A DNA stretch of 51,583 bases from a virus (IMGVR_UViG_2512047041_000005:1-51583), one strand, 5' to 3'. Positions 2,336 through 47,822 are shown, numbered from the stretch's first letter. Notes: a model not told the origin generated them from the letters alone. Made by a program: numbers and translations.

Positions 2336-3088
2336 TCACACTTCGAATGCCAGCTGAGGGGTAAAGACGTCCCGTTCAGCGTTGTAATTAAGTGAACTGG
2401 CACTGTTGAATGATTCAATGCGTTCCACAAGAACTTGCGTACGGGTTTCTTTACTTGCGGGAGCATATGGCGAACCTACCCAGGATTTGTCGATGCCTAT
2501 ATTTCTTGCGACGTTCGTGCTGTCTGCAGACGAAAGCGGTACATGAGTAAAAATGTCTTTATTTAACATCCGTAACCCATGAATCTTGGTGATTGGGTAG
2601 CCGTACTGATCTACAACATGACGTATAAGATCGCGTAGTTTAGCCCGACACGCTCTCGGTCGTTTTGCATCGTATTCCCCCATCGAGCCGATGCAGACGC
2701 GGGGAAACTCATGGCACAGACGAATAAATCGCTCATCTGGTTCGTTCATGTGCCACACCGGAGCACCAATAAATTTACCGTGAGGCCATGCCGCAATCAG
2801 GGCGTCATTCTCTTCACTGGTTCCGCCGATAACATCCGGGATAACCGCGAATGAGAAACGAGGGTGATTACCCCAGCGTTCAACAAATCTGTAATATTCA
2901 TTCCAGTCTACGGCCTTGTTTTTTGTCCAGAATGTGAATGCACCATTATCAAGAGCAAATGATTGGGTGACTTCGGAAGCCAGATCAATCTGAGCTGGAT
3001 TAGCAAAACTGATGAATGCGTGTCTGCCTTTCCAGGCTTTCAACGCACAGGTATCGGGAGTTATTGGACCACCGTGAAAATGAATCAT
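2336..3088 (-). CDS. Hypothetical 250-aa protein, possible TGT/DpdA-like enzyme (speculative)
   Basis: Translationally coupled to upstream ORF (ATGA overlap); contains D-N-G-A-F reminiscent of the D-S-G-G-F motif of tRNA-guanine transglycosylases; assignment unverified. Confidence 0.55.
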   Translation of the reverse strand: MIHFHGGPITPDTCALKAWKGRHAFISFANPAQIDLASEVTQSFALDNGAFTFWTKNKAVDWNEYYRFVERWGNHPRFSFAVIPDVIGGTSEENDALIAAWPHGKFIGAPVWHMNEPDERFIRLCHEFPRVCIGSMGEYDAKRPRACRAKLRDLIRHVVDQYGYPITKIHGLRMLNKDIFTHVPLSSADSTNVARNIGIDKSWVGSPYAPASKETRTQVLVERIESFNSASSLNYNAERDVFTPQLAFEV

Positions 3089-3243
3089 ACACTCTCCCGT
3101 TTATTATTTATCTCCTCAGCCAGTCGCTGGGCTTTCAGCGGATTTCGGATAACAGAAGGCCCGGGAAATACCCAGCCTCGCTTTGTAACGGAGTAGACGA
3201 AAGTGATCGCACCTACCCGGATATTATCGTGAGGATGCTTCAT
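3085..3243 (-). CDS. Small ORF (52 aa), lambda orf60a-like
   Basis: [19 protein letters not shown]...; ATGA overlaps with exo stop upstream and the 250-aa ORF downstream. Confidence 0.4.
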
Positions 3244-3920
3244 CGCCATTGCTCCCCAAATACAAAACCAATTTCAGCCAGTGCCTCGTCCATTTTTTCG
3301 ATGAACTCCGGCACCATCTCGTCAAAACTCGCCATGTACTTTTCATCCCGCTCAACCACGACATAATGCAGTCCTTCACGCTTCATACGCGGGTCATAGT
3401 TGGCAAAGTACCAGGCATCTTTTCGCGTCACCCACATGCTGTACTGCACCTGGGCCATGTAAGCTGACTTTATGGCCTCGAAACCACCGAGCCGGAACTT
3501 CATGAAATCCCGGGAGGTAAACGGGCATTTCAGTTCAAGGCCGTTGCCGTCACTGCATAAACCATCTGGAGAGCAGGCGGTACGCATACTTTCGTCGCGA
3601 TAGATGATCGGGGATTCAGTAACATTCACGCCGGAAGTGAACTCAAACAGGGCTCTGGCGTCGTTCTCGTACTGTTTTCCCCAGGCCAGCGCTTTAGCGT
3701 TAACTTCCGGAGCCACACCGGTGCAAACCTCAGCAAGCAGGGTGTGGAAGTAGGACATTTTCATGTCAGGCCACTTTTTTCCGGAGCGGGGTTTTGCTAT
3801 TACGTTATGAACTTCTGAAGCTGTGATGACGCCGAGCCGTAATTTGTACCACGCATCATCCCCCTGTTCGACAGCTCTCACGTCGATCCCGGTACGCTGC
3901 AGGATAATGTCCGGTGTCAT
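3240..3920 (-). CDS. exo: Lambda exonuclease (Red alpha)
   Basis: 226 aa, near-identical to lambda Exo as remembered ([24 protein letters not shown]...GFVFGEQWR). Confidence 0.95.
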
Positions 3921-4702
3921 GCTGCCACCTTCTGCTCTGCGGCTTTCTGTTTCAGGAATCCAAGAGCTTTTACTGCTTCGGCCTGTGTCAGTTCTGACGA
4001 TGCGCGAATGTCGCGGCGAAATATCTGGGAACAGAGCGGCAATAAGTCGTCATCCCATGTTTTGTCCAGGGCAATCAGCAGAGTGTTAATCTCCTGCATG
4101 GTTTCATCGTTAACCGGAGTGATGTCGCGTTCCGGCTGGCGTTCTGCAGTGTATGCGGTATTTTCGACAATGCGCTCGGCTTCATCCTTGTCATAGATAC
4201 CAGCAAATCCGAAGGCCAGGCGGGCACACTGAATCATGGCTTTATGCCGTAACATCCGTTTGGGATGCGACTGCCACGGGCCGGTGATTTCTCTGCCTTC
4301 GCGGGTTTTGCATGGTTCGCGGCGGCATTCATCCATCCACTCGGTAACGCAGATCGGATGATTGCGGTCTTTGCGGTAAATCCGGCATGTACATGATTCA
4401 TTGTCCTGCTCAAAGTCCATACCATCAAACTGCTGGTTTTCATTGATGATGCGGGACCAGCCATCAACGCCCACCACCGGAACAATGCCGTTCTGCTTAT
4501 CAGGGAAGGCGTAAATTTCTTTCGTCCACGGATTAAGGCCGTACTGGTTGGCGACGATCAACAATGCGATGAACTGCGCATCGCTGGCATCACCTTTAAA
4601 TGCCGTCTGGCGAAGAGTGGTGATCAGTTCCTGTGGGTCGACAGAATCCATGCCGACACGTTCAGCCAGCTTCCCTGCCAGCGTTGCGAGTGCTGTACTC
4701 AT
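3917..4702 (-). CDS. bet: Red beta single-strand annealing protein
   Basis: 261 aa, lambda Bet-like ([48 protein letters not shown]...). Confidence 0.95.
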
Positions 4703-4707
4703 CCGTT

Positions 4708-5004
4708 TTATACCTCTGAATCAATATCAGCCTGATGGTGAGCAATGGTTTCAACTATGTACCGGATGTGTTCTGCCATGCGCTCCTGAAACTCAACATC
4801 GTCATCAAACGCACGGGTAATGGCTTTTTTGCTGGCCCCGTGGCGTTGTAAATGATCGATGCATAGCGATTCAAACAGGTGCTGGGGCAGGCCTTTTTCC
4901 ATGTCGTCTGCCAGTTCTGCCTCTTTCTCTTCACGGGCGATCTGCTGGTAGTGACGCGCCCAGCTCTGAGCCTCAAGACGATCCTGAATGTAATAAGCGT
5001 TCAT
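4708..5004 (-). CDS. gam: Gam (RecBCD inhibitor), short form
   Basis: 98 aa [31 protein letters not shown]...; matches lambda GamS; upstream [13 protein letters not shown] is in another frame. Confidence 0.9.
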
Positions 5005-5079
5005 GGCTGAACTCCTGAAAATGGCTGTGAAAATATCGCCCGCGAAATGCCAGGCTGATTAGGAAAACAGGAAAGGGGG

Positions 5080-5223
5080 TTAGTGAATGCTTTTGCTTGA
5101 TCTCAGTTTCAGTATTAATATCCATTTTTTATAAGCGTCGACGGCCTCACGAAACATCTTTTCATCGCCAATAAAAGTGGCGATAGTGAATTTAGTCTGG
5201 ATAGCCATAATTGTTTGATCCAT
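5080..5223 (-). CDS. kil: Kil (host division inhibitor)
   Basis: 47 aa from internal ATG: [47 protein letters not shown], as lambda Kil. Confidence 0.8.
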
Positions 5224-5356
5224 TTTTTGGGACTCCTGGCTGATTGAGTATGTCGATAAGGCGTTTCCATCCGTCACGTAATTTACGGGTGATTCGTTCA
5301 AGTAAAGATTCGGAAGGGCAGCCAGCAACAGGCCACCCTGCAATGGCATATTGCAT
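5192..5356 (-). CDS. cIII: cIII (FtsH inhibitor)
   Basis: 54-codon ORF below the track's 60-aa cut-off: [54 protein letters not shown], overlapping kil start as in lambda. Confidence 0.7.
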   Translation of the reverse strand: MQYAIAGWPVAGCPSESLLERITRKLRDGWKRLIDILNQPGVPKNGSNNYGYPD

Positions 5357-5428
5357 GGTGTGCTCCTTATTTATACATAACGAAAAACGCCTCGAGTGAA
5401 GCGTAATTGGTATGCGGTAACGCCGCGC

Positions 5429-5797
5429 TCAGGCGGCCTTGATAGTCATATCATCTGAATCAAATATTCCTGATGTATCGATATCGGTAATTCTTATTCC
5501 TTCACTACCATCCATTGGAGGCCATCCTTCCTGACCATTTCCATCATTCCAGTCGAACTCACACACAACACCATATGCATTTAAGTCGCTTGAAATTGCT
5601 ATAAGCAGAGCATGTTGCGCCAGCATGATTAATACAGCATTTAATACAGAGCCGTGTTTATTGAGTCGGTATTCAGAGTCTGACCAGAAATTATTAATCT
5701 GGTGAAGTTTTTCCTCTGTCATTACGTCATGGTCAATTTCAATTTCTATTGATGCTTTCCAGTCGTAATCAATGATGTATTTTTTGATGTTTGACAT
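5429..5797 (-). CDS. ea10: Ea10-like protein
   Basis: 122 aa MSNIKKYIIDYDWKASIEIEIDHDVMTEEK...; position after cIII as in lambda. Confidence 0.8.
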   Translation of the reverse strand: MSNIKKYIIDYDWKASIEIEIDHDVMTEEKLHQINNFWSDSEYRLNKHGSVLNAVLIMLAQHALLIAISSDLNAYGVVCEFDWNDGNGQEGWPPMDGSEGIRITDIDTSGIFDSDDMTIKAA

Positions 5798-5917
5798 CTA
5801 TTCATATCCTCATAGATAAAAAATCGCCCTCACACTGGAGGGCAAAGAAGATTTCCAATAATCTGAACCGCCCCGGGAATCCTGGAGACTAAACTTCCTG
5901 AGAAAGAGGTAAACAGG

Positions 5918-6244
5918 ATGACTAAAAATACTCGTTTTTCCCCCGAAGTCCGTCAACGGGCAGTCCGTATGGTTCTGGAAAGTCAGAGCGAATATGACTC
6001 ACAATGGGCGACAATTTGTTCCATTGCTCCAAAGATTGGCTGTACGCCGGAGACTCTGCGTGTCTGGGTTCGCCAGCATGAGCGGGATACCGGGGGCGGT
6101 GATGGAGGGCTCACCACCGCTGAACGTCAGCGTCTGAAAGAGCTGGAACGTGAAAATCGTGAACTGCGCCGCAGTAACGATATCCTTCGCCAGGCTTCCG
6201 CTTATTTTGCGAAGGCGGAGTTCGACCGCCTCTGGAAAAAATGA
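5918..6244 (+). CDS. IS629 transposase OrfA
   Basis: 108 aa HTH/leucine-zipper OrfA ([50 protein letters not shown]...). Confidence 0.9.
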
Positions 6245-7131
6245 TGCCACTGCTGGATAAGCTGCGTGAGCAGTACGGGGTCGGACCGCTATGCAGCGAA
6301 CTGCATATTGCCCCGTCAACGTATTACCACTGTCAGCAACAGCGACATCATCCGGATAAACGCAGTGCCCGTGCGCAGCGCGATGACTGGCTGAAGAAAG
6401 AGATACAGCGCGTATACGATGAAAATCACAAGGTATACGGTGTGCGTAAAGTCTGGCGTCAGTTGTTACGGGAAGGTATCAGAGTGGCCAGATGCACTGT
6501 GGCACGTCTCATGGCGGTTATGGGACTTGCCGGTGTTCTCCGGGGTAAAAAGGTCCGTACGACCATCAGCCGGAAAGCCGTTGCCGCAGGCGACCGCGTA
6601 AACCGTCAGTTCGTGGCAGAACGACCTGACCAGCTGTGGGTGGCTGATTTTACTTACGTCAGCACATGGCGGGGCTTCGTCTATGTGGCGTTCATCATTG
6701 ATGTGTTTGCCGGATACATCGTGGGGTGGCGGGTCTCATCGTCCATGGAAACGACATTCGTGCTGGATGCACTGGAGCAGGCGTTATGGGCCCGTCGACC
6801 GTCCGGCACGGTCCATCACAGTGATAAAGGTTCTCAGTATGTATCGCTGGCCTACACACAGCGGCTTAAGGAAGCCGGATTACTGGCATCAACAGGAAGT
6901 ACAGGCGACTCGTATGACAACGCGATGGCGGAGAGCATCAATGGTCTTTACAAAGCGGAGGTAATACACCGTAAGAGCTGGAAAAACCGTGCAGAAGTGG
7001 AACTGGCCACACTCACGTGGGTGGACTGGTATAACAATCGACGATTGCTGGAAAGGCTGGGCCATACTCCTCCGGCAGAAGCAGAAAAAGCTTATTATGC
7101 TTCCATCGGAAACGATGATCTGGCAGCCTGA
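6241..7131 (+). CDS. IS629 transposase OrfB (DDE catalytic domain)
   Basis: 296 aa rve-type integrase core; overlaps orfA as in IS3-family frameshift pairs. Confidence 0.9.
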
Positions 7132-7173
7132 GTTCACAGATAAAACACTCTCCAGGAAACCCGGGGCGGTTCA

Positions 7174-7295
7174 AAATGATGGGTGATGGTTTCCTTTGGT
7201 GTTACTGCTGTAGGTTTGTTTCCAACAGTAAACGTCTGTTGAGCACATCCTGTAATAAGCATTGCCAGAGCGGCAGAAAACAACATTTTTTTCAT
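7174..7295 (-). pseudogene. bor: bor lipoprotein gene, 3'-truncated by IS629
   Basis: MKKMLFSAALAMLITGCAQQTFTVGNKPTAVTPKETITHHF then reading runs into the IS629 terminal repeat; lambda Bor-like signal peptide and lipobox. Confidence 0.75.
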
Positions 7296-7775
7296 CTTAT
7301 TATCCTGCATTGTTAAAAACGGCAGAATCCTATGTGACAACAATTAAACGATAGTTAAATGGATTGATGAAAATTAAAACTACACAGGTGGGCTCAGACT
7401 ATTGGAGGAAGTTGGGGACACTCAGAATCCTGTGGAATGAAATAAACCGGTCTATCCGTCCATTACCCTTTTAGCTGCGCTGTATCGTCGCCGTATTCCC
7501 GCATTAACCATGACCGTAGCCCGACGGGGAATTCCTTCTGCGTGAGTGTGCGGGAATAATTAAAAACGATGCACACCGGGTTTTTACCGCGTTAATGATT
7601 CGCGGGTTTATCCCGGTGCGATGGTGGAAGAAACAGGAAGCTGTATTACAGAAAGTGCTACTACTGTATCCCGATGCGATGTATGTAATGTGAGTCAGAT
7701 AATGGCACAGGATGTGGTGATGTGGCAGTCTGGAACACAGGATATATTGTCAGAATAAGACCCGTAGGAATAAAA

Positions 7776-8102
7776 ATGAAAAGACGCCTTTTACTACTTT
7801 TTCTGTTATCTGTCCTGGCAGTGGGATGCTCGCAGCAAAAAGCTGATGAGCCCCGGCAATTAGTGACGGTGTATCCACGATATCCGGAATATGCTGCAGC
7901 AAATTATATCAAGGGGCTGGTTGAGGTTAAGTTCGATATTGGTGCTGATGGGACTGTGACACGGATCGTTTTTCTCCGCTCAGAGCCTCATAATTTGTTT
8001 CGTGATGAAGTGGTGAAGGCCATGGCGAAATGGCGATTTGAAAAGAATCGCCCCTGTCAGGGAGTGAAGAGACAATTTATCTTTACGCCGTCACGTCCTT
8101 GA
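7776..8102 (+). CDS. Lipoprotein with TonB C-terminal-like domain
   Basis: MKRRLLLLFLLSVLAVGC lipobox; C-terminal YPEYAAANYIKGLVEVKFDIGADGTVT resembles TonB/TolA C-terminal fold. Confidence 0.5.
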   Translation: MKRRLLLLFLLSVLAVGCSQQKADEPRQLVTVYPRYPEYAAANYIKGLVEVKFDIGADGTVTRIVFLRSEPHNLFRDEVVKAMAKWRFEKNRPCQGVKRQFIFTPSRP

Positions 8103-8465
8103 TGCTTCCAGGTAGAGAGGGGCTGGAAGCAGGAGAAAAATGAAAGAGCCAGCGGTTATATTTTTGTCATGGCTGACGAGGAATGATGGAAGAAGGCGTT
8201 GTATGCCACACAACGCCTCACTGTTCATTTCTTCTTTTTCTCTGGTGGAACCCGATGAATAAGAGTTGCACTGGTTTCCGATGAGATGGCGATATACTCG
8301 GGCAAAGTATGCTGGCAGTTTTCCAACTGGTCAAAAATACCTGCTCTCGTCTGTTGCAATGCCTGCAGCATGCGGCGGCAATGCGCCTTGCTTTTACTAA
8401 CCATCTTTCCTTCCTCTATCAGTCGCTGCGTGAACTCATCATGGAATACCAGGTAAATGCGGATG

Positions 8466-8717
8466 TTATCGGTTTTGGCTACGCAGCATAGTACAAAACG
8501 GACAGGTGCATCCCGGGACGGGGGAGGCGTCACATGTCCCTGTGATGGTTGTTCCGGGTAATGTACTGTGTGGGGCATAAAAATGTCCGATAATTTTACT
8601 TTCTACCGCAGTTAGTTGATTCGTTGGTCCTGGTAGCACATTGGGCGAGGATTTAAATGCCAGGCAACTGAAGGATGATGTCGCAAGGGAGATAGCGAGA
8701 ATATTTCTGATTTTCAT
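8466..8717 (-). CDS. Small secreted cysteine-containing protein (83 aa)
   Basis: Signal peptide MKIRNILAISLATSSFSCLA; mature part has TGTCDASPVPGCTCPFC; overlaps an alternative ORF 8225-8578. Confidence 0.35.
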   Translation of the reverse strand: MKIRNILAISLATSSFSCLAFKSSPNVLPGPTNQLTAVESKIIGHFYAPHSTLPGTTITGTCDASPVPGCTCPFCTMLRSQNR

Positions 8718-8859
8718 TTGATGATGCCTCTGTGTGAAATGACGGTAAACGACGCACTTGTGCCGGCACATAATAGCAAGCACCATAATAGATCAGATTC
8801 GATTCTTGCTGTAAGTGATAATTATTCTCGTTTTCGGGTCCTTTCCGTCGATCCAACAG

Positions 8860-9052
8860 GTTACGGGGCGGCGACCTCGCGGTTTTTCACTATTTATGAA
8901 AATTTTTCAGGGAAAATCGTGTCGGTACTTCTCGAATATAACTTTTTGTTTTTTTAATATTGCATCCGTAAAGGTCCGACATGAAAGTGTCCGAAAATGC
9001 CTTTTTCTGGCGTTTTCATGTCGGGCCTTGTATTTGATAATGGGTTGTTTTC
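8860..9052 (+). other. Lambda-type cos site (cosN and cosB region)
   Basis: GGGGCGGCGACCTCGCGGTTTTTCACTATTTATGAAAATTTTT matches the lambda cohesive-end region as remembered; lies just upstream of Nu1. Confidence 0.7.
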
Positions 9053-9601
9053 ATGAAGGTTAATAAAAAGAGGCTTGCCGAAATTTTCAACGTGGACCCG
9101 CGGACGATTGAACGCTGGCAGTCTCAGGGACTCCCTTGCGCCTCCAAAGGTAGTAAGGGCATTGAATCTGTATTTGATACTGCCATGGCAATTCAGTGGT
9201 ATGCGCAGAGGGAAACTGATATCGAAAACGAAAAGCTCCGCAAAGAACTGGACGATTTGCGTGCGGCAGCGGAGTCAGATTTACAACCCGGCACCATTGA
9301 CTATGAACGCTACCGGCTCACAAAAGCGCAGGCAGATGCGCAGGAACTGAAAAATGCCCGTGAAGACGGAGTAGTGCTGGAAACTGAACTGTTTACCTTC
9401 ATTCTGCAACGTGTGGCACAGGAGATTTCGGGGATACTTGTGCGTGTGCCGTTGACATTACAGCGTAAATATCCGGACATTTCACCATCACACCTTGATG
9501 TGGTGAAAACTGAAATCGCGAAAGCCTCCAATGTTGCAGCTAAGGCCGGTGAAAACGTGGGCGGGTGGATCGATGATTTCAGACGCGCAGAAGGCAGCTA
9601 A
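9053..9601 (+). CDS. nu1: Terminase small subunit Nu1
   Basis: 182 aa [28 protein letters not shown]...; strong similarity to lambda Nu1. Confidence 0.9.
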
Positions 9602-9836
9602 TGCAGCCGGTGCGATAGCTACAGGGCTTTTATCTCTCATTATTCCTGTTCCACTGACGACAGTTCAGTGGGCCAATAAACATTATTACCTTCCTAAAGA
9701 GTCGTCTTATACCCCGGGGCGATGGGAAACACTGCCGTTTCAGGTTGGCATCATGAACTGTATGGGCAACGATCTGATTCGCACGGTTAACCTGATTAAA
9801 TCTGCCCGTGTTGGTTATACAAAGAGCGAGAGGTAA
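9573..9836 (+). pseudogene. A: Terminase large subunit A, N-terminal ~87-codon stub
   Basis: WANKHYYLPKESSYTPGRWETLPFQVGIMNCMGNDLIRTVNLIKSARVGY matches lambda gpA N-terminus, then stops; rest of A and all head/tail genes absent. Confidence 0.8.
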
Positions 9837-9838
9837 TT

Positions 9839-10270
9839 ATGCGTAAATTATGTGCTGTTATTCTGTCCGCAGTAGTCTGGCTGGTTGCCGCTGGTACGCC
9901 AGCGAGCGCAGCAGAGCATCAGTCCACACTAAGCGCCGGGTATCTTCAGACCCATACTGATATGCCAGGCAGTGATGACCTGAAGGGCATTAACGTGAAA
10001 TACCGTTATGAATTTACGGACACGCTGGGGCTGGTGACGTCATTCAGTTATGCCAATGCCAAAGATGAGCAAAAAACGCATTACAGCGATACCCGCTGGC
10101 ATGAAGATTCCGTGCGTAACCGCTGGTTCAGCATGATGGCGGGGCCATCTGTACGCGTGAATGAATGGTTCAGTGCTTATGCGATGGCAGGTGTGGCTTA
10201 CAGCCGTGTTTCGACGTTCTCCGGGGATTATCTCCGCGTAACTGACAACAAGGGGAAAACGCACGATGTG
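9839..10270 (+). pseudogene. lom: lom (Ail/Lom outer-membrane protein), 5' fragment
   Basis: Signal peptide and Lom-like beta-barrel N-terminal part; reading leaves Lom homology at about 10270 where the Mu-like element begins. Confidence 0.8.
10265..10270. repeat. Left copy of target-site duplication (ATGTGC)
   Basis: Same hexamer at 47651-47656; boundary is ambiguous by up to 3 nt because the element starts TGA. Confidence 0.5.
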
Positions 10271-10349
10271 CTGATGCGCCGCGCGATAAATGCACTCTAT
10301 CTTGTGCGATAAATGGCATCCACGCGGCGTTTCATTATTTGAAAAAGAA

Positions 10350-10922
10350 TTACATTTCAGGTTGCGTTATGACAGTCCCAACAGGGTGATAGCGGTAGAT
10401 CGTTGACAGTCCAATATCATAGATAATTGCCAGCCGCTTTCTGTCATACCCTTTCTGGAGCAATCTTGCGATCTGCTCATGCTGCTCCTTCGTCAGTTTC
10501 GGGCGACGTCCTCCAACTCTTCCTTGTGCTCGCGCAGCAGCCAGTCCTGCCAGCGTGCGCTCAACTATCAGTTCACGCTCCATTTCTGCCAGTGCACCCA
10601 TCATATGAAAAAAGAACCTTCCCATCGGAGTGCTGGTATCGATTGAATCCGTCAGACTGCGAAAATTGACACCTTTTGCGCGTAACTCTTCTGTGAGAGC
10701 AATGAGGTGTTTCATTCTTCTACCCAACCGATCCAGCTTCCAGACCACCAATGTATCCCCTCTTTTAAGGCACTTTAAAGCGCGTTTCAGGCCTGGTCGT
10801 TCCGACTTGGTTCCGCTCATTTTGTCCTCAAAAATCTGTTCACATCCTGCGCACATTAATGCATTGCGTTGCAAATCTGTGTTTTGGTCATTTGTTGACA
10901 CACGTATGTAGCCAATCAGCAT
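10350..10922 (-). CDS. Serine DNA invertase (Pin/Gin/Hin family)
   Basis: 190 aa from internal ATG: MLIGYIRVSTNDQNTDLQRNALMCAGCEQIFEDK..., close to e14 Pin / Mu Gin; C-terminal HTH. Confidence 0.9.
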   Translation of the reverse strand: MLIGYIRVSTNDQNTDLQRNALMCAGCEQIFEDKMSGTKSERPGLKRALKCLKRGDTLVVWKLDRLGRRMKHLIALTEELRAKGVNFRSLTDSIDTSTPMGRFFFHMMGALAEMERELIVERTLAGLAAARAQGRVGGRRPKLTKEQHEQIARLLQKGYDRKRLAIIYDIGLSTIYRYHPVGTVITQPEM

Positions 10923-10988
10923 TAAAAATACTCCCTTTTGAGTGGTTAAAGTACTGAGATAATGTGGGGAGGATTTGAGAGATAAACG

Positions 10989-11211
10989 TTGGTTTGGGGG
11001 AAGGCTCTGCATTGCCTGTTGGTGTACCGGTTCCGTGGCCCACCGCCACACCGCCAGAAGGCTGGTTAAAGTGCGACGGGCGCGCCTTTACAAAAGAACA
11101 ATATCCTGTTCTGGCCAGAGCCTACCCGACCCTCCGTCTTCCCGATTTACGCGGTGAGTTTATCCGTGGATGGGACGACGGGCGCAAGATTGACGAGGGG
11201 CGTAAGTTGCT
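10989..11211. repeat. Inverted repeat A (~222 bp) flanking the invertible fibre segment
   Basis: About 90 percent identical to the reverse complement of 12384-12605; encodes the shared fibre peptide GEGSALPVGVPVPWPTATPP...GWDDGRK. Confidence 0.8.
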
Positions 11212-11467
11212 TTCATGGCAGAAAGGTACACTGGTCGGCGGTCATGACGATAACGATTCTGCGCTTGATATCTCGTACATGAGTAACGGAAATAATATTG
11301 ACTATGGCGGCGATAAGGTGTTTGCGGGGAATTACCGTAGCGATTATTTGTGGTACGCAGTGCTGGGTGGAACAAACAGTCGCGCAAAAGCCGAATTAAA
11401 CGGAGCATTCTTTAACATAACCCGCCCCCGCAATATCGCGTTTAACTATATCGTGAGGGCGGCGTGA
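10994..11467 (+). CDS. Alternative tail-fibre C-terminal cassette (silent orientation)
   Basis: No ATG (track start is TTG, a Leu codon in the repeat); begins with the IR-encoded peptide and ends NIAFNYIVRAA like the expressed fibre; would fuse to the fibre after inversion. Confidence 0.6.
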   Translation: MGEGSALPVGVPVPWPTATPPEGWLKCDGRAFTKEQYPVLARAYPTLRLPDLRGEFIRGWDDGRKIDEGRKLLSWQKGTLVGGHDDNDSALDISYMSNGNNIDYGGDKVFAGNYRSDYLWYAVLGGTNSRAKAELNGAFFNITRPRNIAFNYIVRAA

Positions 11468-11473
11468 TACCGT

Positions 11474-12088
11474 TCAACTGGCAAGTGCCAGTGGCGCTTC
11501 CGGCCAGCTGATTTCAGGTGCCGTGCTGATATCCAGTGCGTTCAGCTCGTCGATATAATCCAGCACGGCGTTCAGTTTTGCCGTTTCTTCTGGTGTCAGA
11601 CTGCGACCAGCACGCAGTTTGAGGTTGATAAGATCGACGGACGCCATCGCCTGTTTCACCCGTTGCTGGCGTTGCTGTCTGGCAACCTCCAGTTCTGCGG
11701 CTCGCTGCCGTTCAGTATCGGTTACCCACGCCTCACCGTTCCAGGTATCCCATGGCGTGGCTGGCTGTTTTGTGGTGGTGTCCGCCGGGTAATCACCCGG
11801 TTGGGTAATCAGAACGGGGTTACCGTTCTCCGTGCTGTATACCGTCTCGCCGCGGTGATCAGGCACATGCTCCCACCCGTTCAGCGTGGCAGTCCGGCAA
11901 ACCACGTAACCCGAAATTGCCTCCGGCGGTGCATCGGCGCACGAATGTGCCGGAGTACCCACCCCAAGGGCGAGATACTCCACAGAGGATGAGGTGTATT
12001 CCCGGGTTTCCTCGTCATAGTGATATACAGTGATATCGCCCGCTACAGTGGCGATACCGTTTTCATCCAGAACTGCAGTGTTACTCAT
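11474..12088 (-). CDS. Tail-fibre assembly protein (Tfa/U-like chaperone)
   Basis: 204 aa directly downstream of the fibre gene; typical Tfa N-terminus MSNTAVLDENGIATVAGDITVYHYDEETREY. Confidence 0.8.
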   Translation of the reverse strand: MSNTAVLDENGIATVAGDITVYHYDEETREYTSSSVEYLALGVGTPAHSCADAPPEAISGYVVCRTATLNGWEHVPDHRGETVYSTENGNPVLITQPGDYPADTTTKQPATPWDTWNGEAWVTDTERQRAAELEVARQQRQQRVKQAMASVDLINLKLRAGRSLTPEETAKLNAVLDYIDELNALDISTAPEISWPEAPLALAS

Positions 12089-13425
12089 TAAACTGCCCTC
12101 ACAATGTAATTAAGTGCAATGCTACGGGGTCTGACAGTGATACCCTTCGCATACCCGCTTCTGATAGAGGTCAGAATAGTAGCCTGCATACCATTGTCTG
12201 ACATTGCCACGACAGGATCGCTGAATGTTGTCCCGTCCGGCATTTTAAAGCTGCCCTCACGAAGGTCTGTAATGGAATCTTCATTGTTGAATCCCATGCC
12301 GACTATCCCCGAGGTTCCCGTAGTGTCCTGGTTATAATAATCCAGCATTGCTGTTCTTAACAGCGTTGCCCCTTGTGCGGACAGCAACTTACGTCCTGTA
12401 TCAACTTTGCGCCCGTCGTCCCATCCACGGATAAACTCACCGCGTAAATCGGGAAGACGGAGGGTCGGGTAGGCTCTGGCCAGAACAGGATATTGTTCTT
12501 TTGTAAAGGCGCGCCCGTCGCACTTTAACCAGCCTGCTGGCGGTGTGGCAGTGGGCCACGGAACAGGTACACCAACGGGCAGCGCCGAGCCTTCCCCCAA
12601 ACCAAGGTAATTGAGGACATCTTTTATACTGCCCTTAGCGATAATAGCGCGACCAATAGCTGTAAGGGTTGCCAGCGCTGCTCGGTCTGCTCCGGTAAAA
12701 TAAGGCAACCGATCTGCTGCAGTGGCAAGTCCTGCCAGAGCAGTGAGCGTGGCATCTGCCGGTTGTTTTCCGTTTGCCAGATCGTATGCAGCCTTGACCG
12801 CTTTCGGTGTGGCGGCCAGTATTTCAGACGTGCTGTTGATGGCACTGCTCAATTGTACGGTGCCTTTTGCCGTCAGCGAGGCAGCAGGCACTCCCGTTAT
12901 CTGACTCCACGGGTGAGTGTGGCTGACGGGCGCCTTGCCGGCTGCAAGGTCGTATGCAGCCTTGACCGCCTTCGGCGTGGCAGCCTCAGTTTCTGATTGA
13001 CTGTCCGTGGCGCTGCTCAGTTGTACGGTGCCTTTTGCCGTCAGTGAAGCCGCAGGCACTCCCGTTATCTGACTCCACGGGTGAGTGTGGCTGGCAGGCG
13101 CCTTGCCGGCTGCCAGGTCGTATGCAGCCTTGACCGCTTTTGGTGTGGCGGCCAGCGTTTCAGAGGTGCTGTTGGTGGCACTGCTCAGTTGGGTGAACCC
13201 CTTAGCTGTCAGTGTCGCGTCCGGGTGGTTACGGGAACGTACGTGTTCAGCCAGTGACTGTGCGGCTTCCTCCGTTTTCTTCTTCAGCCATTTCGTCCTG
13301 TTTGCCAGTTGCCGGGGGGCTCGATTTGATATCCCGTCTGCACCACCCAGAACCGGATCTGATGTCTCCAGTTGATAGATATTTTCTTCCCACTTTTCTG
13401 TTTCATTCAGGTTTCCCATAATCAA
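12088..13425 (-). CDS. Tail fibre protein
   Basis: Collagen-like/ATPKAVKAAYDLA repeats (168-bp tandem units near 12900-13240), C-terminal NYIVRAV; probable ATG 6 nt inside the track ORF. Confidence 0.85.
   Translation of the reverse strand: MIMGNLNETEKWEENIYQLETSDPVLGGADGISNRAPRQLANRTKWLKKKTEEAAQSLAEHVRSRNHPDATLTAKGFTQLSSATNSTSETLAATPKAVKAAYDLAAGKAPASHTHPWSQITGVPAASLTAKGTVQLSSATDSQSETEAATPKAVKAAYDLAAGKAPVSHTHPWSQITGVPAASLTAKGTVQLSSAINSTSEILAATPKAVKAAYDLANGKQPADATLTALAGLATAADRLPYFTGADRAALATLTAIGRAIIAKGSIKDVLNYLGLGEGSALPVGVPVPWPTATPPAGWLKCDGRAFTKEQYPVLARAYPTLRLPDLRGEFIRGWDDGRKVDTGRKLLSAQGATLLRTAMLDYYNQDTTGTSGIVGMGFNNEDSITDLREGSFKMPDGTTFSDPVVAMSDNGMQATILTSIRSGYAKGITVRPRSIALNYIVRAV
12384..12605. 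repeat. Inverted repeat B, partner of 10989-11211
   Basis: Lies inside the expressed tail-fibre gene at the constant/variable boundary. Confidence 0.8.
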
Positions 13426-14000
13426 CTGCTCCCGTGGTTATAACTGCCATCATGGATGGCAGTATTGTTATAGCGAATGGCCACAGACTGATACTCCAGG
13501 CTGGCCAGATGGCAGCGGGCCGGTGCAAATGCAGCCAGCGTCTGACGCAGCATCGCGGCCTGATCGTTAGTAATGGGCTGTTTCAGAATAACGCGATAAA
13601 CTGCCCAGGCGGCTGCATCTCCATGAACAAACAGTCCGTTATAGCTGCGATTGCCGTCGTAACTGAGACGACCTGTGCCTTCAATCAGATCCACTTCACC
13701 AAAGCCAAAACGGCGGATAACTTCCCGGATTGACCACGGCGTCCCTTTATACCGGTGCAGTTCGATGGCTGCTTTTATAAGCATGCGGCGAACATCGTCC
13801 GATTCCGCCAGCTCCCAGCCATCGCCAGACAGTGAGAACTGCTCGCCCAGCCATGGCAGCGCGGAACTGTCGACGATATCGACGAGAAAGACCATCAGTA
13901 CGCTCAGGTCGATGTTATCCAGCCGTCCTGCCAGTCTTCCCAGCGTCCTGAGACTGATATCACCCTCAAGCGGTGGCGGGAGTTGTAATGGCTCAGTCAT
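13422..14000 (-). CDS. Baseplate protein (P2 gpI-like)
   Basis: 192 aa between the baseplate J-like and fibre genes. Confidence 0.65.
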   Translation of the reverse strand: MTEPLQLPPPLEGDISLRTLGRLAGRLDNIDLSVLMVFLVDIVDSSALPWLGEQFSLSGDGWELAESDDVRRMLIKAAIELHRYKGTPWSIREVIRRFGFGEVDLIEGTGRLSYDGNRSYNGLFVHGDAAAWAVYRVILKQPITNDQAAMLRQTLAAFAPARCHLASLEYQSVAIRYNNTAIHDGSYNHGSS

Positions 14001-15096
14001 CAGACACTCCAGTCATGTTAAGAGTGATTGCCGTACAGTTTGCCCATTCGTTTTCTGCCACCACCCGCAGTGCCGGTGTCACCAGTTCAACCTGGTACAC
14101 CCCGGAAACGGACAATGCACTGATAATCTGGCTGGGGACAATATCGCGCCCCAGCGTGGCGGCACGTGATGCCACCCAGTTCTGTATGGCGCTGTTAGCG
14201 GCATCTTTTACAGACCTGGCATCCTGATCACGATAGATCGTAATCCTGGCTTCAATGGTGTAATCCACCTTCACTGGTGTTTTAGCCCGCACTGTATCAG
14301 TGAGTGGCCTGACTTTCTCATCAGAGCAGAAACTCTCTACCAGCGTGAGAACACCGCCGTCCGGCAGACCGGTACTGAGCAGCGGATACAGATCTACGGT
14401 CCCGGGAACCGGGGAAAGCACAGCAACATCGACAATGTTGGGATGGGCCTGCATGGCATGAAAGCGGTATGCGCCACGGCTTCCGGCATTGGTGAATGAC
14501 TCCGGGGCCAGCCTGATACGCTCCCGGAGCCTGTCATCGTCTTCCTGTTCTGAACCGCCGGAACTGGCCGTCAGATTGCTCACCAGCAGGTCGACGTTAT
14601 CAATCTCATCGAGTAACTGACTGACCTGCGCAGGTTGCCAGCCGTTACCAGCGGTACCGGGTTCGGTACAGGTGGACGTGACATTGACCAGCAGCAATCC
14701 GGCCTTCAGTACCACATCTGTATCGGTGGCAAAAATAACGCTGTCGGAAGCGCTGACGCGGGTGCCTGCCGGGATCAGCACATCAATGGCCAGCGCCTCA
14801 TCTACGGAGAACTGGAGCGTGGTGGTGGCAGGCTGCGCGGCAAGACGGTATACACCAACCAGTTCACCGAGGTAATCAATCATCGGCTCACGGGCAAAGG
14901 CGACCAGATTCTGCTTTGCTGCCTCCTGTACCGCAACCCTGACCAGCATTTCGCGATAGGCCCACAGATCAATCAGCAGACGTTCTGCCTGTGCCGGGTA
15001 CAGCGTTTTGCCGGTATCCGCTTCATACTTCGCAATCATTTCTGCCGTGATTTTGTCGGCATCGCGTTCAATAAAATCGGGTTCTGTCAGCGCCAT
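13993..15096 (-). CDS. Baseplate J-like protein
   Basis: 367 aa; start overlaps the W-like stop (ATGGCGCTGA), canonical W/J arrangement. Confidence 0.8.
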   Translation of the reverse strand: MALTEPDFIERDADKITAEMIAKYEADTGKTLYPAQAERLLIDLWAYREMLVRVAVQEAAKQNLVAFAREPMIDYLGELVGVYRLAAQPATTTLQFSVDEALAIDVLIPAGTRVSASDSVIFATDTDVVLKAGLLLVNVTSTCTEPGTAGNGWQPAQVSQLLDEIDNVDLLVSNLTASSGGSEQEDDDRLRERIRLAPESFTNAGSRGAYRFHAMQAHPNIVDVAVLSPVPGTVDLYPLLSTGLPDGGVLTLVESFCSDEKVRPLTDTVRAKTPVKVDYTIEARITIYRDQDARSVKDAANSAIQNWVASRAATLGRDIVPSQIISALSVSGVYQVELVTPALRVVAENEWANCTAITLNMTGVSDD

Positions 15097-15434
15097 AGCA
15101 GCTCCTGAGTCCGGGTCTGTCCGTCTGAGCCTTTCCAGCTCACCCGGAGCGTAAGATGTTCGCCGTCGACGGCGGGTTTAACTGACATAAGCTGGCAGCG
15201 GGGCTCCCAGCGCCGGATGGCATCGACGGATTCGCGCACCACATGCGGAATGGCCCGGTCTACAGGCTAGTCGATATAAAGATGCAGATTGCTGCCGAAC
15301 TCCGGGCGATGCGGGTCGCTGCCGCGGGGAGTCCGCAGGATAATTTGAATCGCCTGCCGGATATCATCCAGCCCCCGGACAATTTCGCCGGGAGCCTGCA
15401 GGGCTGGTTGCCAGAATACTGAGGTTGTTTTCAT
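15087..15434 (-). pseudogene. Baseplate W-like (gp25 family) gene with in-frame amber codon
   Basis: 116 codons, ATG at about 15432-15434; reads ...FGSNLHLYID-TAG-PVDRAIPHVVRESVDAIRRWEPR...; TAG at about 15267-15269; no ORF of 60 aa or more in the track across this gap. Confidence 0.7.
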
Positions 15435-15488
15435 GGGGGCAGTATTGCCCCCGTGCGGGAACGCTGATATTAAAGGCGTTTAAAAAGC

Positions 15489-16085
15489 TCAGTGGGAGTG
15501 GTGGCTGGAGTTTTCGCCATCAGACAACATACTGCCCGTGGCATGGGCATTCCCTTTAATCTCGATATTGCCATGGATGGTCGCGGTAACACCTTCACCA
15601 CCAGAACCCGCCATGCCTCCTTCGTAAATCAGCTTACCCCTGACACGCAGATCTCCGGTAAGTTCGGTTTCCGGTGCGTCAATCGTGGCTTTCTGTGTTT
15701 TCAATACCACATCAGCACCACACTCAATGACAATATGCTCAATGCCGCCCCGGATGATCAGAGTGTGCGTCTTCCGGTTGTAGCTGTACTCTGCACCATC
15801 AGCAAACCGGGTTCCCCGGATATTTTTGTCACTGAACGGTGGTTTATCGACGTCTGAATACACCGCGCCCAGAATAACACCATCCTCGCCGTTGGCATCG
15901 AGCAGCACCTCAACCTGCTCCCCCACGTCAGGGAGCCAGTAATCTTTGTTATCCTGGGTATTGCGCTGCAGCACGTTAAGCCAGTTTGTGCGCAGGTTAT
16001 CGCATTCAGGCAGACGAACGCGGGCCTGAACCCTGTCGGCATCAACGGCACTGACCGTACCGACCTGACGAGTGACACCAGTCAT
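15489..16085 (-). CDS. Baseplate spike (P2 gpV-like)
   Basis: 198 aa, glycine-rich with histidine-rich C-terminus (SSHHSH) typical of spike apex. Confidence 0.75.
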   Translation of the reverse strand: MTGVTRQVGTVSAVDADRVQARVRLPECDNLRTNWLNVLQRNTQDNKDYWLPDVGEQVEVLLDANGEDGVILGAVYSDVDKPPFSDKNIRGTRFADGAEYSYNRKTHTLIIRGGIEHIVIECGADVVLKTQKATIDAPETELTGDLRVRGKLIYEGGMAGSGGEGVTATIHGNIEIKGNAHATGSMLSDGENSSHHSH

Positions 16086-33100: not shown

Positions 33101-33426
33101 TATTGACCTCCGGTATTGCGGTACTGCTGTACCACTTCCAGTTTGTTATAAAGCGCGTCCAGTTTGGCCTCAATGACTGTCTGGCCACGGATATAATCCT
33201 CTCGACGGACATAATTCAGCGGTAAATCCGCTTTAAATCGCATAAATTCTTTTTCCAGCTCGCCCCAGTTGGAGGCGGATTGTTGCAGGGCCTGTTCAAG
33301 GGAGGCGAATCGTGCCGCCTGGCGTTCTTCTGTTTTACTGAACAACCATTTGGCGAGCCCTCCCACAAACCCCATGAAGGTGAGCAGAAAACTCACCACC
33401 GTCCAGAATTCAACCTGCAGTGTCAT
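33100..33426 (-). CDS. Membrane protein with coiled-coil
   Basis: N-terminal TM helix (WTVVSFLLTFMGFVGGLAKWLF) then helical region. Confidence 0.5.
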   Translation of the reverse strand: MTLQVEFWTVVSFLLTFMGFVGGLAKWLFSKTEERQAARFASLEQALQQSASNWGELEKEFMRFKADLPLNYVRREDYIRGQTVIEAKLDALYNKLEVVQQYRNTGGQ

Positions 33427-34797: not shown

Positions 34798-34799
34798 GA

Positions 34800-35150: not shown

Positions 35151-35280
35151 GTGTGTCTCCTCGTTTGGTGGAGACAGCATCACAAATACAGGGCGCAAAG
35201 GATTTTAAAGCGCGTTAAGAGAGCCGGGGATACGGGATGTGCAGGATAAACGATGAATTATTCACAGAGGAGAATACGAT

Positions 35281-38521: not shown

Positions 38522-39436
38522 ATGGGACGCACCAAATCACCCGTTAACACTGAACTGAATGTTGAGGTTCCGCTGTCAGATAACATCAATGTCAATTTGA
38601 ACGCTATGACACAGCATCGCATGGAAATTATGCAGCAGTTTGGTGATGGACTGCCTTATGAACGTGATCGCATTGTTCACGAAGCACGTTTTTATATGGC
38701 GCAGAGTGCTGAATCTATGCTGGAAGCGGGTAAGCGGCTGATCATCTTAAAAGAAAATGAGCCACACGGTGATTTTACAAACATTTTAGAAAATGAACTC
38801 GGACTTGCACCACAAGTTGCTCGCCGCATGATGCAAGCCAGTATGAAGTTTTTGGGAGAAGGTGATGAGCCAACAAAACGCTCAACGTTGAGCGTTTTGG
38901 GGAAAGCCAAACTGTACGACCTGATGGTTCTGGATAATGAAGAACTTGATGAATTGGCCGACGGCGGCACAGTTGCCGGCCTGACGCTTGACGACGTTGA
39001 TCGCATGTCAGTACGTGAATTGCGTCAGGCCCTGCGCGAAGCGCGCGAAACCAACGCAGCACAACAGCGCGTACTCGCTGACAAAAATGAAAAAATAGAC
39101 TCACTCTCCACCAGACTGGAGAAGAAATCCCGTATTCAGCCGCCTGAGCCTGATGAAGAGGTTAAGAAGCTGCGGGCGGAAGTGACAGCATTAGCGGTTG
39201 AGGCGGAATCTGCTATCGCCGTTCGACTGTCCAGCGCTTTTGAGACGCTGTGCGCATATTGTGCTGAAAACATGATTGATACCCCCAGAGACTTCATGGC
39301 AGGCCTGGTCTGTCAACTGGAAAGCACAGCGCGTAGCCTGCGCTCCACATTTGACCTGCCGGATGAGCCAACAGGCAATGCCGCGCCTTCATGGCTGACT
39401 GAGCCGACGCCACAGATTAACGGGCTGGAGGCATAA
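38522..39436 (+). CDS. Hypothetical acidic coiled-coil protein
   Basis: 304 aa immediately upstream of the transposase gene; no recognised motif. Confidence 0.55.
   Translation: MGRTKSPVNTELNVEVPLSDNINVNLNAMTQHRMEIMQQFGDGLPYERDRIVHEARFYMAQSAESMLEAGKRLIILKENEPHGDFTNILENELGLAPQVARRMMQASMKFLGEGDEPTKRSTLSVLGKAKLYDLMVLDNEELDELADGGTVAGLTLDDVDRMSVRELRQALREARETNAAQQRVLADKNEKIDSLSTRLEKKSRIQPPEPDEEVKKLRAEVTALAVEAESAIAVRLSSAFETLCAYCAENMIDTPRDFMAGLVCQLESTARSLRSTFDLPDEPTGNAAPSWLTEPTPQINGLEA

Positions 39437-47518: not shown

Positions 47519-47822
<304 letters not shown>

What the first reader, a model, noticed from the sequence alone, without database searches (positions are those of the whole stretch)
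5798..7295. IS629-associated deletion joins ea10 to a truncated bor and removes the lambdoid core
IS629 (5864-7173) has no matching target duplication (flanks atc and aaa). To its left is ea10, the last retained pL-operon gene; to its right bor is cut after codon 41 and runs into the IS end. Everything that lies between ea10 and bor in lambda (ral, N, immunity, replication, Q, lysis) is absent, as expected for an IS-mediated deletion or recombination between two IS copies. The Red operon, kil and cIII are intact but have lost pL and N, so any expression needs another promoter.
Basis: partly seen in the sequence, partly recalled or inferred. Interest (0 to 1): 0.5.

Follow-up and report, generated by a model that had tools for sequence, protein, structure and literature searches.

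The report
IS629-anchored deletion in a defective prophage
A 1.3-kb insertion sequence (IS629 type) sits on the scar of a deletion that removed the control, replication and lysis genes of a phage-21-like prophage in the E. coli IAI39 clone; this is real, but it is an ordinary example of how insertion sequences dismantle prophages.

Summary
A complete 1310-bp IS629/IS1203-type element lies at 5864-7173. Its flanks are atc and aaa, so there is no target duplication. It joins the ea10 end of the leftward early (pL) operon to the first 41 codons of bor/iss.

Compared with an intact prophage at the same icd site (strain PMV-1), 12,485 bp are missing. Compared with phage 21, 7,994 bp are missing: ral, N, nutL, pL, cI, cro, cII, O, P, ren, nin, Q, pR', S, R, Rz and the 3' part of bor. 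Nothing resembling these genes is found elsewhere in the window.

New evidence:
- Four of 5,426 complete E. coli genomes share the ea10|IS junction but have three different right-hand junctions (window 7174, 39206, 47572). This is a nested deletion series anchored on the IS right end.
- A different IS629 variant sits at the same nucleotide in an unrelated prophage (strain N63), again without a duplication.
- Two Stx phages carry simple insertions, with duplications, 4 and 28 bp away.

Most likely mechanism: a nearby re-insertion of the IS, then recombination between the two copies. The rival is a direct transposase-made deletion.

The Red genes are intact but lack pL and N, and a terminator lies upstream of them. 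This is a known kind of event; interest is low.

The parts
3240..5004 (-). Red module: exo 3240-3920 (226 aa), bet 3917-4702 (261 aa), gam 4708-5004 (98-aa form). All are intact.
   Evidence: ORFs. bet matches TIGR01913 at 166 bits, and exo matches the lambda-exonuclease family model TIGR03033 below its curated cut-off (54.4 bits against 68.05). RefSeq annotates them as intact in the near-identical IAI39 and in N32, AF57 and PMV-1. Phage 21 Gam is also 297 nt.
5080..5369 (-). kil (5080-5223), cIII (5192-5356) and the cIII mRNA thermoregulator (5311-5369).
   Evidence: ORFs. RefSeq annotation. Rfam RF01804, 88.5 bits.
5429..5797 (-). ea10 (DUF2528, 122 aa), the last gene of the leftward early operon that is retained.
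   Evidence: It corresponds to phage 21 gene CPT_21_48, annotated as similar to lambda Ea10.
5824..5845 (-). Intrinsic terminator between the IS and ea10: an 8-bp GC-rich stem followed by U6. It is the terminator annotated in phage 21 at 33198-33227.
   Evidence: Scan. Fold of -12.9 kcal/mol, z = -3.5. Phage 21 annotation.
5861..5863 (.). Left flank 'atc'. The left junction lies between 5863 and 5864 and corresponds to PMV-1 L006 7515/7516 and phage 21 33245/33246.
   Evidence: This junction is present in exactly 4 of 5,426 complete genomes and in one metagenome contig.
5864..7173 (+). Complete IS629/IS1203-type insertion sequence (IS3 family), 1310 bp. Inverted repeats 5864-5888 and 7149-7173; orfA 5918-6244; orfB 6241-7131; ALIL frameshift pseudoknot 6199-6315.
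   Evidence: It is 96.3% identical, without gaps, to an O157:H7 copy annotated IS1203. It is 100% identical over 795 bp to a copy that PGAP (NCBI's annotation pipeline) names IS629 family.
7174..7295 (-). Truncated bor/iss: codons 1-40 plus 2 nt of codon 41. The open frame continues into the IS to a stop at 7134. The right flank 'aaa' is 7174-7176.
   Evidence: RefSeq marks iss as a pseudogene missing its C-terminus. The right junction corresponds to PMV-1 L006 20001 and phage 21 41240.
7296..9825 (+). Retained right arm of the phage-21-type prophage: region upstream of bor, TonB-C-domain gene (7722/7776-8102), cos (about 8865/8866), small terminase gp1/Nu1 (9053-9601), and the first ~84 codons of large terminase gp2/A (9573-9825). 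It is 100% identical to PMV-1 throughout, and to phage 21 up to cos (8865).
39206..39206 (.). Position of the IS right-hand junction in clone-mate N32. There, window 7174-39205 is additionally missing, and the junction lies inside the DUF3102 gene of the Mu-like prophage.
47572..47572 (.). Position of the IS right-hand junction in clone-mate AF57. There, window 7174-47571 is missing, and only the last 79 bp of the Mu-like prophage remain.

Best explanation
What is shown: this is the remnant of a phage-21-type lambdoid prophage integrated at icd in the E. coli IAI39 clone. That clone carries about 26 to 40 or more copies of this IS629-type element. One copy lies 18 bp beyond the terminator upstream of ea10, in the spacer where ral follows in intact relatives. 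It now abuts codon 41 of bor. The 8-12.5 kb between these points is gone; that stretch held ral, N, nutL, pL, the immunity genes, O, P, the nin genes, Q, pR' and the lysis genes.

What is inferred about mechanism: the IS right end is complete to the last base at every variant junction, so transposase chemistry made each junction, not random breakage. The most likely route has two steps.
1. The anchored copy spawned a second copy nearby, in the same orientation, in bor. The later events in N32 and AF57 would have involved copies in the Mu-like prophage.
2. Homologous recombination between the two 1.3-kb direct repeats removed one copy and everything between them. This leaves one IS carrying the left flank of the first copy and the right flank of the second, and hence no matching duplication.

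Consequence, inferred: the prophage cannot be induced, replicate or lyse. int, xis, exo, bet, gam, kil, cIII and ea10 remain intact but have lost their promoter (pL) and antiterminator (N with nutL), and they sit behind an intrinsic terminator, so they are expected to be silent. The only plausible upstream source of leftward transcripts is the bor promoter, reading antisense through the IS.
For: - The anatomy and the deletion are shown.
- All four TSD-less junctions keep the exact end ...GGTTCA: window/IAI39/AR_0013 at bor, N32 at 39206, AF57 at 47572, and N63 at a tail-fibre gene.
- The series is nested: the left junction is identical in four genomes, while the right junction is shared only by IAI39 and AR_0013. 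N32 and AF57 differ from the window by only 0-2 substitutions in each shared block of 4-12 kb (about 2-4 per genome), so the deletions happened recently within one clone.
- Nearby re-insertion is seen directly. AR_0013 has a second copy about 550 bp to the right (near window 7730), with the duplication gac, and it carries the same private five-substitution patch as its anchored copy. AF57 has another copy 4.4 kb to the left, with the duplication acc.
- Both surviving nearby copies are inverted relative to the anchor. That is what one expects if same-orientation copies are quickly removed by recombination.
- Copy-out-paste-in elements of the IS3 family regenerate the donor site, and adjacent deletions are not a standard product of that pathway (review, bioRxiv 10.1101/2023.06.07.543989).
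- IS629 sites without duplications, and IS629-linked deletions in prophages, are common in O157 (PMC3271280; PMC9943667).
Against: - No genome or metagenome contig shows either intermediate. The simple ea10-side insertion with an atc duplication was not found. An IS in bor at this position was not found. No state with two direct copies was seen.
- Three separate two-step events are less economical than three one-step events from a single active IS end.
- The orientation argument rests on only two nearby copies.
- The IS copies in the clone are nearly identical, so a recombinant IS cannot be recognised.
- Which junction (ea10 side or bor side) was the original insertion cannot be proven for the first deletion.
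Confidence: 0.5

Rival explanations
1. One-step, transposase-made adjacent deletion. The right end of the anchored IS attacked a target in the same chromosome arm and the intervening DNA was lost. The attacking species could be a tandem IS dimer junction, as described for IS911 and IS30, or a misdirected ('sloppy') strand transfer, as proposed for IS629. No second copy ever existed.
For: - One left junction is paired with three different right junctions, each at the exact IS end.
- N63 shows the same polarity: left junction kept, right side deleted.
- No two-copy intermediate was found.
- Models of this kind have been proposed for IS629-associated deletions.
Against: - The IS3-family copy-out-paste-in pathway regenerates the donor, and the review notes that such deletions would need an additional type of reaction.
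- No tandem dimer was seen in any of the genomes examined.
- The apparent polarity could instead reflect selection: loss of the lysis and immunity core is tolerated, and the same left junction is simply inherited.
Confidence: 0.35
2. The two arms come from two different prophages (tandem or neighbouring), each carrying an IS copy. Recombination between those copies fused them, so this is not an internal deletion of one prophage.
For: The arms differ in their similarity to the same references. The left arm is 97.4-98.5% identical to phage 21 and PMV-1, while the right arm is 100% identical.
Against: - Both arms are in the order and orientation of a single phage-21-type genome, and they sit at the phage-21 attachment site with the usual right-end tail-fibre genes.
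- Free phages PhiR57_1 and ev017 show the same pattern (98.7% left arm, 100% right arm) within one genome, so ordinary lambdoid mosaicism explains it.
- No second int or att site is present in the window.
Confidence: 0.05
3. The deletion was unrelated to the IS (illegitimate recombination), and the IS later inserted exactly at the scar. Alternatively, the deletion was made by the IS-excision enhancer (IEE) through microhomology end-joining.
For: IEE-linked deletions from a few bases to more than 40 kb next to IS629 are documented. An IS-free deletion scar does exist 2.6 kb away, at 9825/9826.
Against: - A later simple insertion would leave a 3-4 bp duplication. Five of six sister copies have one and this copy has none.
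- Three different right junctions, all exactly at the IS end, cannot be coincidental insertions at scars.
- IEE events excise the IS. Here the IS is complete and both ends are intact.
- Whether this clone carries iee was not tested.
Confidence: 0.03

Closest known systems
IS629 copies without target duplication, and IS629-associated deletions, in prophages of E. coli O157:H7 (Rump et al. 2011, PMC3271280; Ooka et al. 2009 and Kusumoto et al. 2011 as cited in PMC9943667)
   Same: - The IS type is the same: 96.3% identical, 1310 bp.
- The habitat is the same: 62% of O157 copies lie in prophages.
- The duplications are 3-4 bp, and more than half of O157 sites (26 of 47) lack one.
- Deletions adjacent to the IS are a recognised source of strain differences.
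   Different: - The host here is an extraintestinal pathogenic clone (IAI39 lineage), not EHEC.
- The IS variant is a distinct isoform.
- The IS is retained at every junction, whereas IEE-type events remove it.
- A natural nested series of three deletions from one anchored copy is documented here.
Cryptic lambdoid prophages of E. coli K-12 (e14 at icd; Rac with its silent recET; DLP12, Qin). This comparison rests on established knowledge and was not tested here.
   Same: - These are defective lambdoid remnants that have lost their core functions.
- e14 and phage 21 use the same icd attachment site.
- Rac keeps a recombination module that is silent for lack of a promoter, as inferred here for exo-bet-gam.
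   Different: - This remnant is very young: both arms are 97-100% identical to free phages.
- The deletion end-points are marked by an IS.
- A 37-kb Mu-like prophage is nested in its lom gene.
Phage 21 (OL657228.1) and the intact prophage at icd in strain PMV-1 (NC_022370.1)
   Same: The integration site, gene order, ea10-side terminator, bor, TonB-like gene, cos and gp1/gp2 terminase are the same. The right arm is 100% identical and the left arm 97.4-98.5%.
   Different: The window lacks phage 21 coordinates 33246-41239 (PMV-1 L006 7516-20000). It also lacks the head and tail genes between terminase codon ~84 and lom.
Adjacent deletions from tandem IS dimers (IS911, IS30) and the 'sloppy strand transfer' model for IS629 (review, bioRxiv 10.1101/2023.06.07.543989)
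   Same: Deletion is one-sided, an exact IS end is retained, and there is no target duplication.
   Different: No dimer or active junction was observed. The standard IS3-family pathway does not yield this product by itself.

Membership tests
IS629 / IS1203 (IS3 family) | Length about 1.3 kb with imperfect terminal inverted repeats that begin TG and end CA | tested here: met
   The element is 1310 bp. The 25-bp inverted repeats are 5864-5888 and 7149-7173.
IS629 / IS1203 (IS3 family) | Two overlapping frames (orfA, orfB) joined by a programmed -1 frameshift, with a DDE transposase | tested here: met
   orfA is 5918-6244 and orfB is 6241-7131. NCBIfam transpos_IS3 scores 314.6 bits against a cut-off of 160. 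The Rfam ALIL pseudoknot scores 120 bits. RefSeq annotates a programmed frameshift.
IS629 / IS1203 (IS3 family) | Close nucleotide identity to named IS629/IS1203 copies | tested here: met
   It is 96.3% identical over 1310 bp, without gaps, to an O157:H7 copy annotated IS1203. It is 100% identical over 795 bp to a copy annotated IS629 family. The ISfinder reference sequence itself was not available.
IS629 / IS1203 (IS3 family) | A 3-4 bp target duplication at a simple insertion | tested here: not met
   This copy has atc on one side and aaa on the other. Sister copies show gac, acc, atc, atgc and gac. The failure marks a rearrangement at this copy; it does not mean a different family.
IS-associated deletion (IS-IS recombination or adjacent deletion) | The flanks are non-adjacent segments of one collinear reference, in the same order and orientation | tested here: met
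   Window 3096-5863 matches PMV-1 L006 4748-7515, and window 7174-9825 matches L006 20001-22652. The same holds against phage 21.
IS-associated deletion (IS-IS recombination or adjacent deletion) | The IS is complete, with exact ends at the novel junction | tested here: met
   There are 0-5 mismatches between anchored copies, and the ends are intact at all four junction types.
IS-associated deletion (IS-IS recombination or adjacent deletion) | A parental state is observed (simple insertion, or two direct copies) | tested here: not met
   Searches with chimeric junction queries found none in 5,426 complete E. coli genomes, and the ea10-side simple-insertion junction was also absent from metagenome contigs. 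Absence from a sample is weak evidence.
IEE-mediated IS excision or deletion | The IS is removed, the junction shows microhomology, and iee is present in the genome | tested here: not met
   The IS is retained intact. Whether iee is present in this clone could not be tested with these tools.
Phage-21-type lambdoid prophage | Integrase next to icd; phage-21 cos, gp1 and gp2; lambda-type Red, kil, cIII and ea10 genes | tested here: met
   icd is adjacent to int in IAI39, N32, AF57 and PMV-1. Window 7174-8865 is 100% identical to phage 21 41240-42931, and the terminase region matches phage 21 records at 98.5-99.9%.
Phage-21-type lambdoid prophage | Functional immunity, replication, late-control, lysis and morphogenesis modules | tested here: not met
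   All are absent. The head and tail genes are also absent, between 9825 and lom.

The most novel reading that the evidence does not exclude
The roughly 30-bp spacer just beyond the ea10-side terminator of lambdoid leftward early operons may be a preferred landing site for IS629-type elements. Once an element is there, its right end may repeatedly generate one-sided deletions. This would be a reproducible short route from an inducible lambdoid prophage to a core-less, non-lytic remnant that keeps int, xis and the Red genes.

Four apparently independent insertions support this:
- the IAI39 clone;
- N63, at the same nucleotide and in the same orientation, but with an IS isoform only 96.3% identical and in a P22-like prophage at argW;
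- Stx2 phage Stx2_131033, 4 bp away, inverted, with the duplication gaa;
- phage PA45, 28 bp away, with the duplication acg.

Both copies at position 0 lack a duplication and have lost the DNA on their right-hand side.
Probability: 0.35. Interest if true: 0.35.

Novelty: new member of a known kind. Interest (0 to 1): 0.2.

Why it matters
The finding gives an exact, base-level account of how one prophage of a well-known uropathogenic reference strain was disabled. Comparison of near-identical clone-mates also catches an insertion sequence removing 12, 32 and 40 kb in steps from one fixed end.

This makes a useful natural data set for the unsettled question of how IS3-family elements, which copy themselves out without cutting the donor, produce deletions next to themselves.

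It also flags an intact but promoterless Red recombination module in clinical strains. Such a module could matter if it were reactivated or rescued by a superinfecting phage: De Paepe et al. 2014 (PMC3945230) showed that temperate phages recombine with defective prophages.

None of this overturns current understanding.

Tried and rejected
1. I looked for the ancestral simple insertion (IS right end + atc + native downstream sequence). It was absent from 5,426 complete E. coli genomes and from metagenome contigs. All apparent full-length hits were two separate pieces.
2. I looked for a second-copy parent, meaning native bor 3' part + aaa + IS left end. It was also absent.
3. I scanned metagenome contigs and the species-representative genome collection for the left junction. 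One metagenome contig turned up, but it ends inside the IS repeat and so says nothing about the right side. The genome collection gave nothing.
4. I first suspected that the Mu-like prophage had an inverted early region. I dropped this because divergent early and late arms around a central repressor fit BcepMu-type transposable phages. That comparison is from memory and was not tested.
5. I considered whether the window is IAI39 itself. It is not exactly: it differs by a few substitutions, one indel and a flipped invertible segment.
6. I tried to read Ooka et al. 2009 (PMC2765283), but it is not held.
7. A tblastx search returned nothing because the program is not installed. I replaced it with tblastn of translated segments.
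8. A consensus promoter scan found no leftward sigma-70-like site in 5300-7800. By eye there is a weak candidate upstream of bor (TTGTCA, 17 nt, TTTAAC), which I treat as speculative.
9. The presence of iee in this clone could not be tested.

Full report
**What is at the coordinates**

Positions 5864-7173 hold a complete 1310-bp insertion sequence.
- It starts TGAACCGCCCCGGG and ends CCCGGGGCGGTTCA.
- It has 25-bp terminal inverted repeats.
- It has two overlapping frames, 5918-6244 and 6241-7131. Both hit the NCBIfam IS3-transposase model; orfB scores 314.6 bits against a cut-off of 160.
- It carries the ALIL frameshift pseudoknot at 6199-6315.
- It is 96.3% identical, without gaps, to an O157:H7 copy annotated IS1203. 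It is 100% identical over 795 bp to a truncated copy annotated as IS629 family.

It is therefore an IS629/IS1203 isoform. The three bases on either side are atc and aaa, so there is no target duplication.

To the left lies ea10 (5429-5797, minus strand), followed by cIII, kil, gam, bet, exo, xis and int. To the right lie the first 41 codons of bor/iss (7295 down to 7174, minus strand). The third base of codon 41 is supplied by the last base of the IS, and the frame runs on for 12 codons into the IS.

**Where the window comes from**

The junction region is 100% identical to E. coli IAI39 (NC_011750.1) and 99.8% identical to AR_0013. Over its whole length the window differs from IAI39 by a few substitutions, one 1-bp indel and a flipped invertible segment. 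It therefore comes from a very close clone-mate.

The element is a lambdoid prophage integrated next to icd. Its right arm, from bor through the TonB-like gene to cos, is 100% identical to phage 21. The terminase genes beyond cos match phage 21 records at 98.5-99.9%. The left arm is 97.4-98.7% identical to phage 21 and related phages. Phage 21, not lambda, is the proper reference.

**What is missing**

Strain PMV-1 carries an apparently complete prophage of this type at the same site. The window matches it up to L006 7515 and again from L006 20001, so 12,485 bp are absent.

In the well-annotated phage 21 genome the gap is 33246-41239, or 7,994 bp. It contains the following:
- ral, N, nutL, pL and the OL operators;
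- cI, the OR operators, cro, nutR and cII;
- O with the origin, P, ren and ninB to ninH;
- Q, pR' and two tRNAs;
- the holin, endolysin and spanins;
- bor codons 42-97.

No translated segment of the missing PMV-1 DNA has a match anywhere in the 51.6-kb window.

**Does the missing duplication mean anything?**

Five of six other copies of this same IS in the fetched genomes have clean 3-4 bp duplications. So do two IS629 insertions in Stx phages a few bases away. A simple insertion here should therefore have left a duplication.

IS629 copies without a duplication are nonetheless common. Rump et al. found matching duplications at only 21 of 47 sites in O157:H7, and 62% of copies lay in prophages (PMC3271280). 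De Paepe et al. had already classed all IAI39 prophages as defective because of IS insertions (PMC3945230). This kind of event is well known.

**New evidence on how it arose**

A 140-bp probe across the left junction finds it, intact and identical, in exactly four of 5,426 complete genomes: IAI39, AR_0013, N32 and AF57. The right junction is found only in IAI39 and AR_0013.
- In N32 the same IS, with the same left flank, abuts window position 39206, inside a gene of the Mu-like prophage. Window 7174-39205 is additionally missing there.
- In AF57 the IS abuts position 47572, and window 7174-47571 is missing.
- These genomes differ from the window by only 0-2 substitutions in each shared block of 4-12 kb (about 2-4 per genome).

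This is a recent nested deletion series inside one clone. It is anchored on the IS right end, and the IS terminus is exact at every junction. Such exactness implies that transposase made each junction.

**Which mechanism**

Two routes fit the data.

Route (a) has two steps. A second copy lands nearby in the same orientation, and homologous recombination between the two copies then removes the interval.

Route (b) is a direct intramolecular reaction of the IS end, through a tandem-dimer junction or a misdirected strand transfer.

I favour (a), with confidence of about 0.5 against 0.35 for (b), for four reasons:
1. IS3-family elements copy themselves out and regenerate the donor. A specialist review notes that adjacent deletions need some extra reaction.
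2. Nearby re-insertion is seen directly. AR_0013 has a second copy about 550 bp away that carries the same private five-substitution patch as its anchored copy. AF57 has one 4.4 kb away. Both have duplications.
3. Both surviving neighbours are inverted, as expected if same-orientation neighbours are quickly recombined away.
4. The clone carries roughly 26 to 40 or more copies, so new insertions are frequent.

Against (a), no intermediate was found in any collection. Three two-step events are also less economical than three one-step events.

Other readings fare poorly. An unrelated deletion followed by a coincidental insertion is excluded by the absent duplication and the three exact junctions. 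IEE-type excision does not fit because the IS is retained. A fusion of two different prophages is unlikely, because free phages show the same pattern of arm identities.

**Consequences for the retained genes**

exo, bet, gam (the 98-aa form, as in phage 21 and PMV-1), kil, cIII (with its RNA thermoregulator) and ea10 are intact. Their promoter, antiterminator and nut site are gone.

A strong intrinsic terminator is also retained between the IS and ea10. It is at 5824-5845 on the minus strand, folds at -12.9 kcal/mol and is followed by U6. Phage 21 has the same terminator annotated.

No leftward consensus promoter was found in or near the IS. The nearest upstream unit in the right orientation is bor, whose promoter region is retained. 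Its transcripts would have to cross the whole IS antisense and then the terminator. I infer that the module is silent; this was not tested.

**A possible insertion hot spot**

Strain N63 carries a different IS629 isoform (96.3% identical, 49 scattered differences) at the same nucleotide and in the same orientation. It sits beside the homologous terminator of an unrelated P22-like prophage at argW. It too has no duplication, and a truncated tail-fibre gene lies on its right.

Stx2 phage Stx2_131033 has an inverted copy 4 bp away (duplication gaa). Phage PA45 has a copy 28 bp away (duplication acg). That makes four apparently independent insertions within 29 bp, which suggests a regional preference. 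Rump et al. saw no sequence-specific target. A shared ancient insertion cannot be fully excluded for N63.

**Verdict**

This is a new, well-documented member of a known kind of event. Interest is low (0.2). The nested series and the candidate hot spot are modest additions.

Noticed in passing
window 9825/9826: There is a second deletion scar with no IS. Large terminase gp2/A stops matching PMV-1 after about 84 codons (…ggttatacaaaga|gcgagaggtaattATG) and runs straight into the start of lom. All head genes and most tail genes are missing.
   Followed up: partly
window 10272-47650: A 37.4-kb Mu-like transposable prophage is inserted in lom. It encodes an rve transposase, an AAA+ MuB-like protein, Mor, a divergent HTH repressor, P2-type baseplate and tail genes, and a Gin/Pin-type invertase. 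Its ends are TGAT...ATCA, in matching inverted repeats. An apparent 6-bp duplication, atgtgc, flanks it (10266-10271 and 47651-47656). RefSeq marks its gp25/W-like baseplate gene as having an internal stop in IAI39.
   Followed up: partly
window 10986-12605: The tail-fibre segment next to the invertase gene (10350-11051, minus strand) is in the opposite orientation in IAI39 and AR_0013, at 99.9% identity. This behaves as an active G-segment-like switch.
   Followed up: partly
window 46161-46283 (minus strand): A full-length match to the Hfq-binding small RNA isrC (Rfam RF01387, 145 bits) lies inside the early region of the Mu-like prophage.
   Followed up: no
L010 (strain N63) 9061-10370: An IS629 isoform, 96.3% identical to the window's copy, sits at the same nucleotide beside the homologous terminator of a P22-like prophage at argW. 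It has no duplication (atc / taa), and a truncated tail-fibre gene lies on its right. This is a parallel loss of a prophage core.
   Followed up: yes
L012 (Stx2_131033) 2575-3884; L013 (phage PA45) 2599-3908: These are simple IS629 insertions, with 3-bp duplications (gaa, acg), 4 bp and 28 bp from the window's insertion point. Together they suggest a local hot spot between the terminator and ral.
   Followed up: partly
L005 (AR_0013) 14332-15641 and 12465-13774: A second, inverted IS copy lies about 550 bp right of the anchored one (insertion point near window 7730, about 40 bp upstream of the TonB-like CDS start). It shares the anchored copy's private five-substitution patch (IS positions 165-243). 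This points to nearby transposition from the anchor, or to gene conversion between the copies.
   Followed up: yes
L001 (IAI39) 2990-4299: Another identical IS copy, with the duplication gac, splits an STM2901-family gene just outside the prophage in IAI39 only. The gene is intact in N32 and AR_0013. The probes count about 40 IS copies in IAI39, against 26-34 in its relatives.
   Followed up: partly
window 8865/8866 and 9053-9601: The phage-21 cos site and an intact small terminase subunit are retained, although the large subunit is truncated. In principle a phage-21-type helper could still act on this cos.
   Followed up: no
L004 (strain CEA106S) 14446-15755: An IS copy inside cII of another lambdoid prophage also lacks a duplication (aca / gta). 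The same prophage has copies splitting gam (duplication atgc) and a gene near xis (duplication atc).
   Followed up: no
window 7174-9825 versus 3096-5863: The right arm is 100% identical to PMV-1 (and to phage 21 as far as cos, 8865), while the left arm is only 97.4-98.5% identical. Free phages PhiR57_1 and ev017 show the same split, so this is ordinary mosaicism rather than a sign of two prophages.
   Followed up: partly
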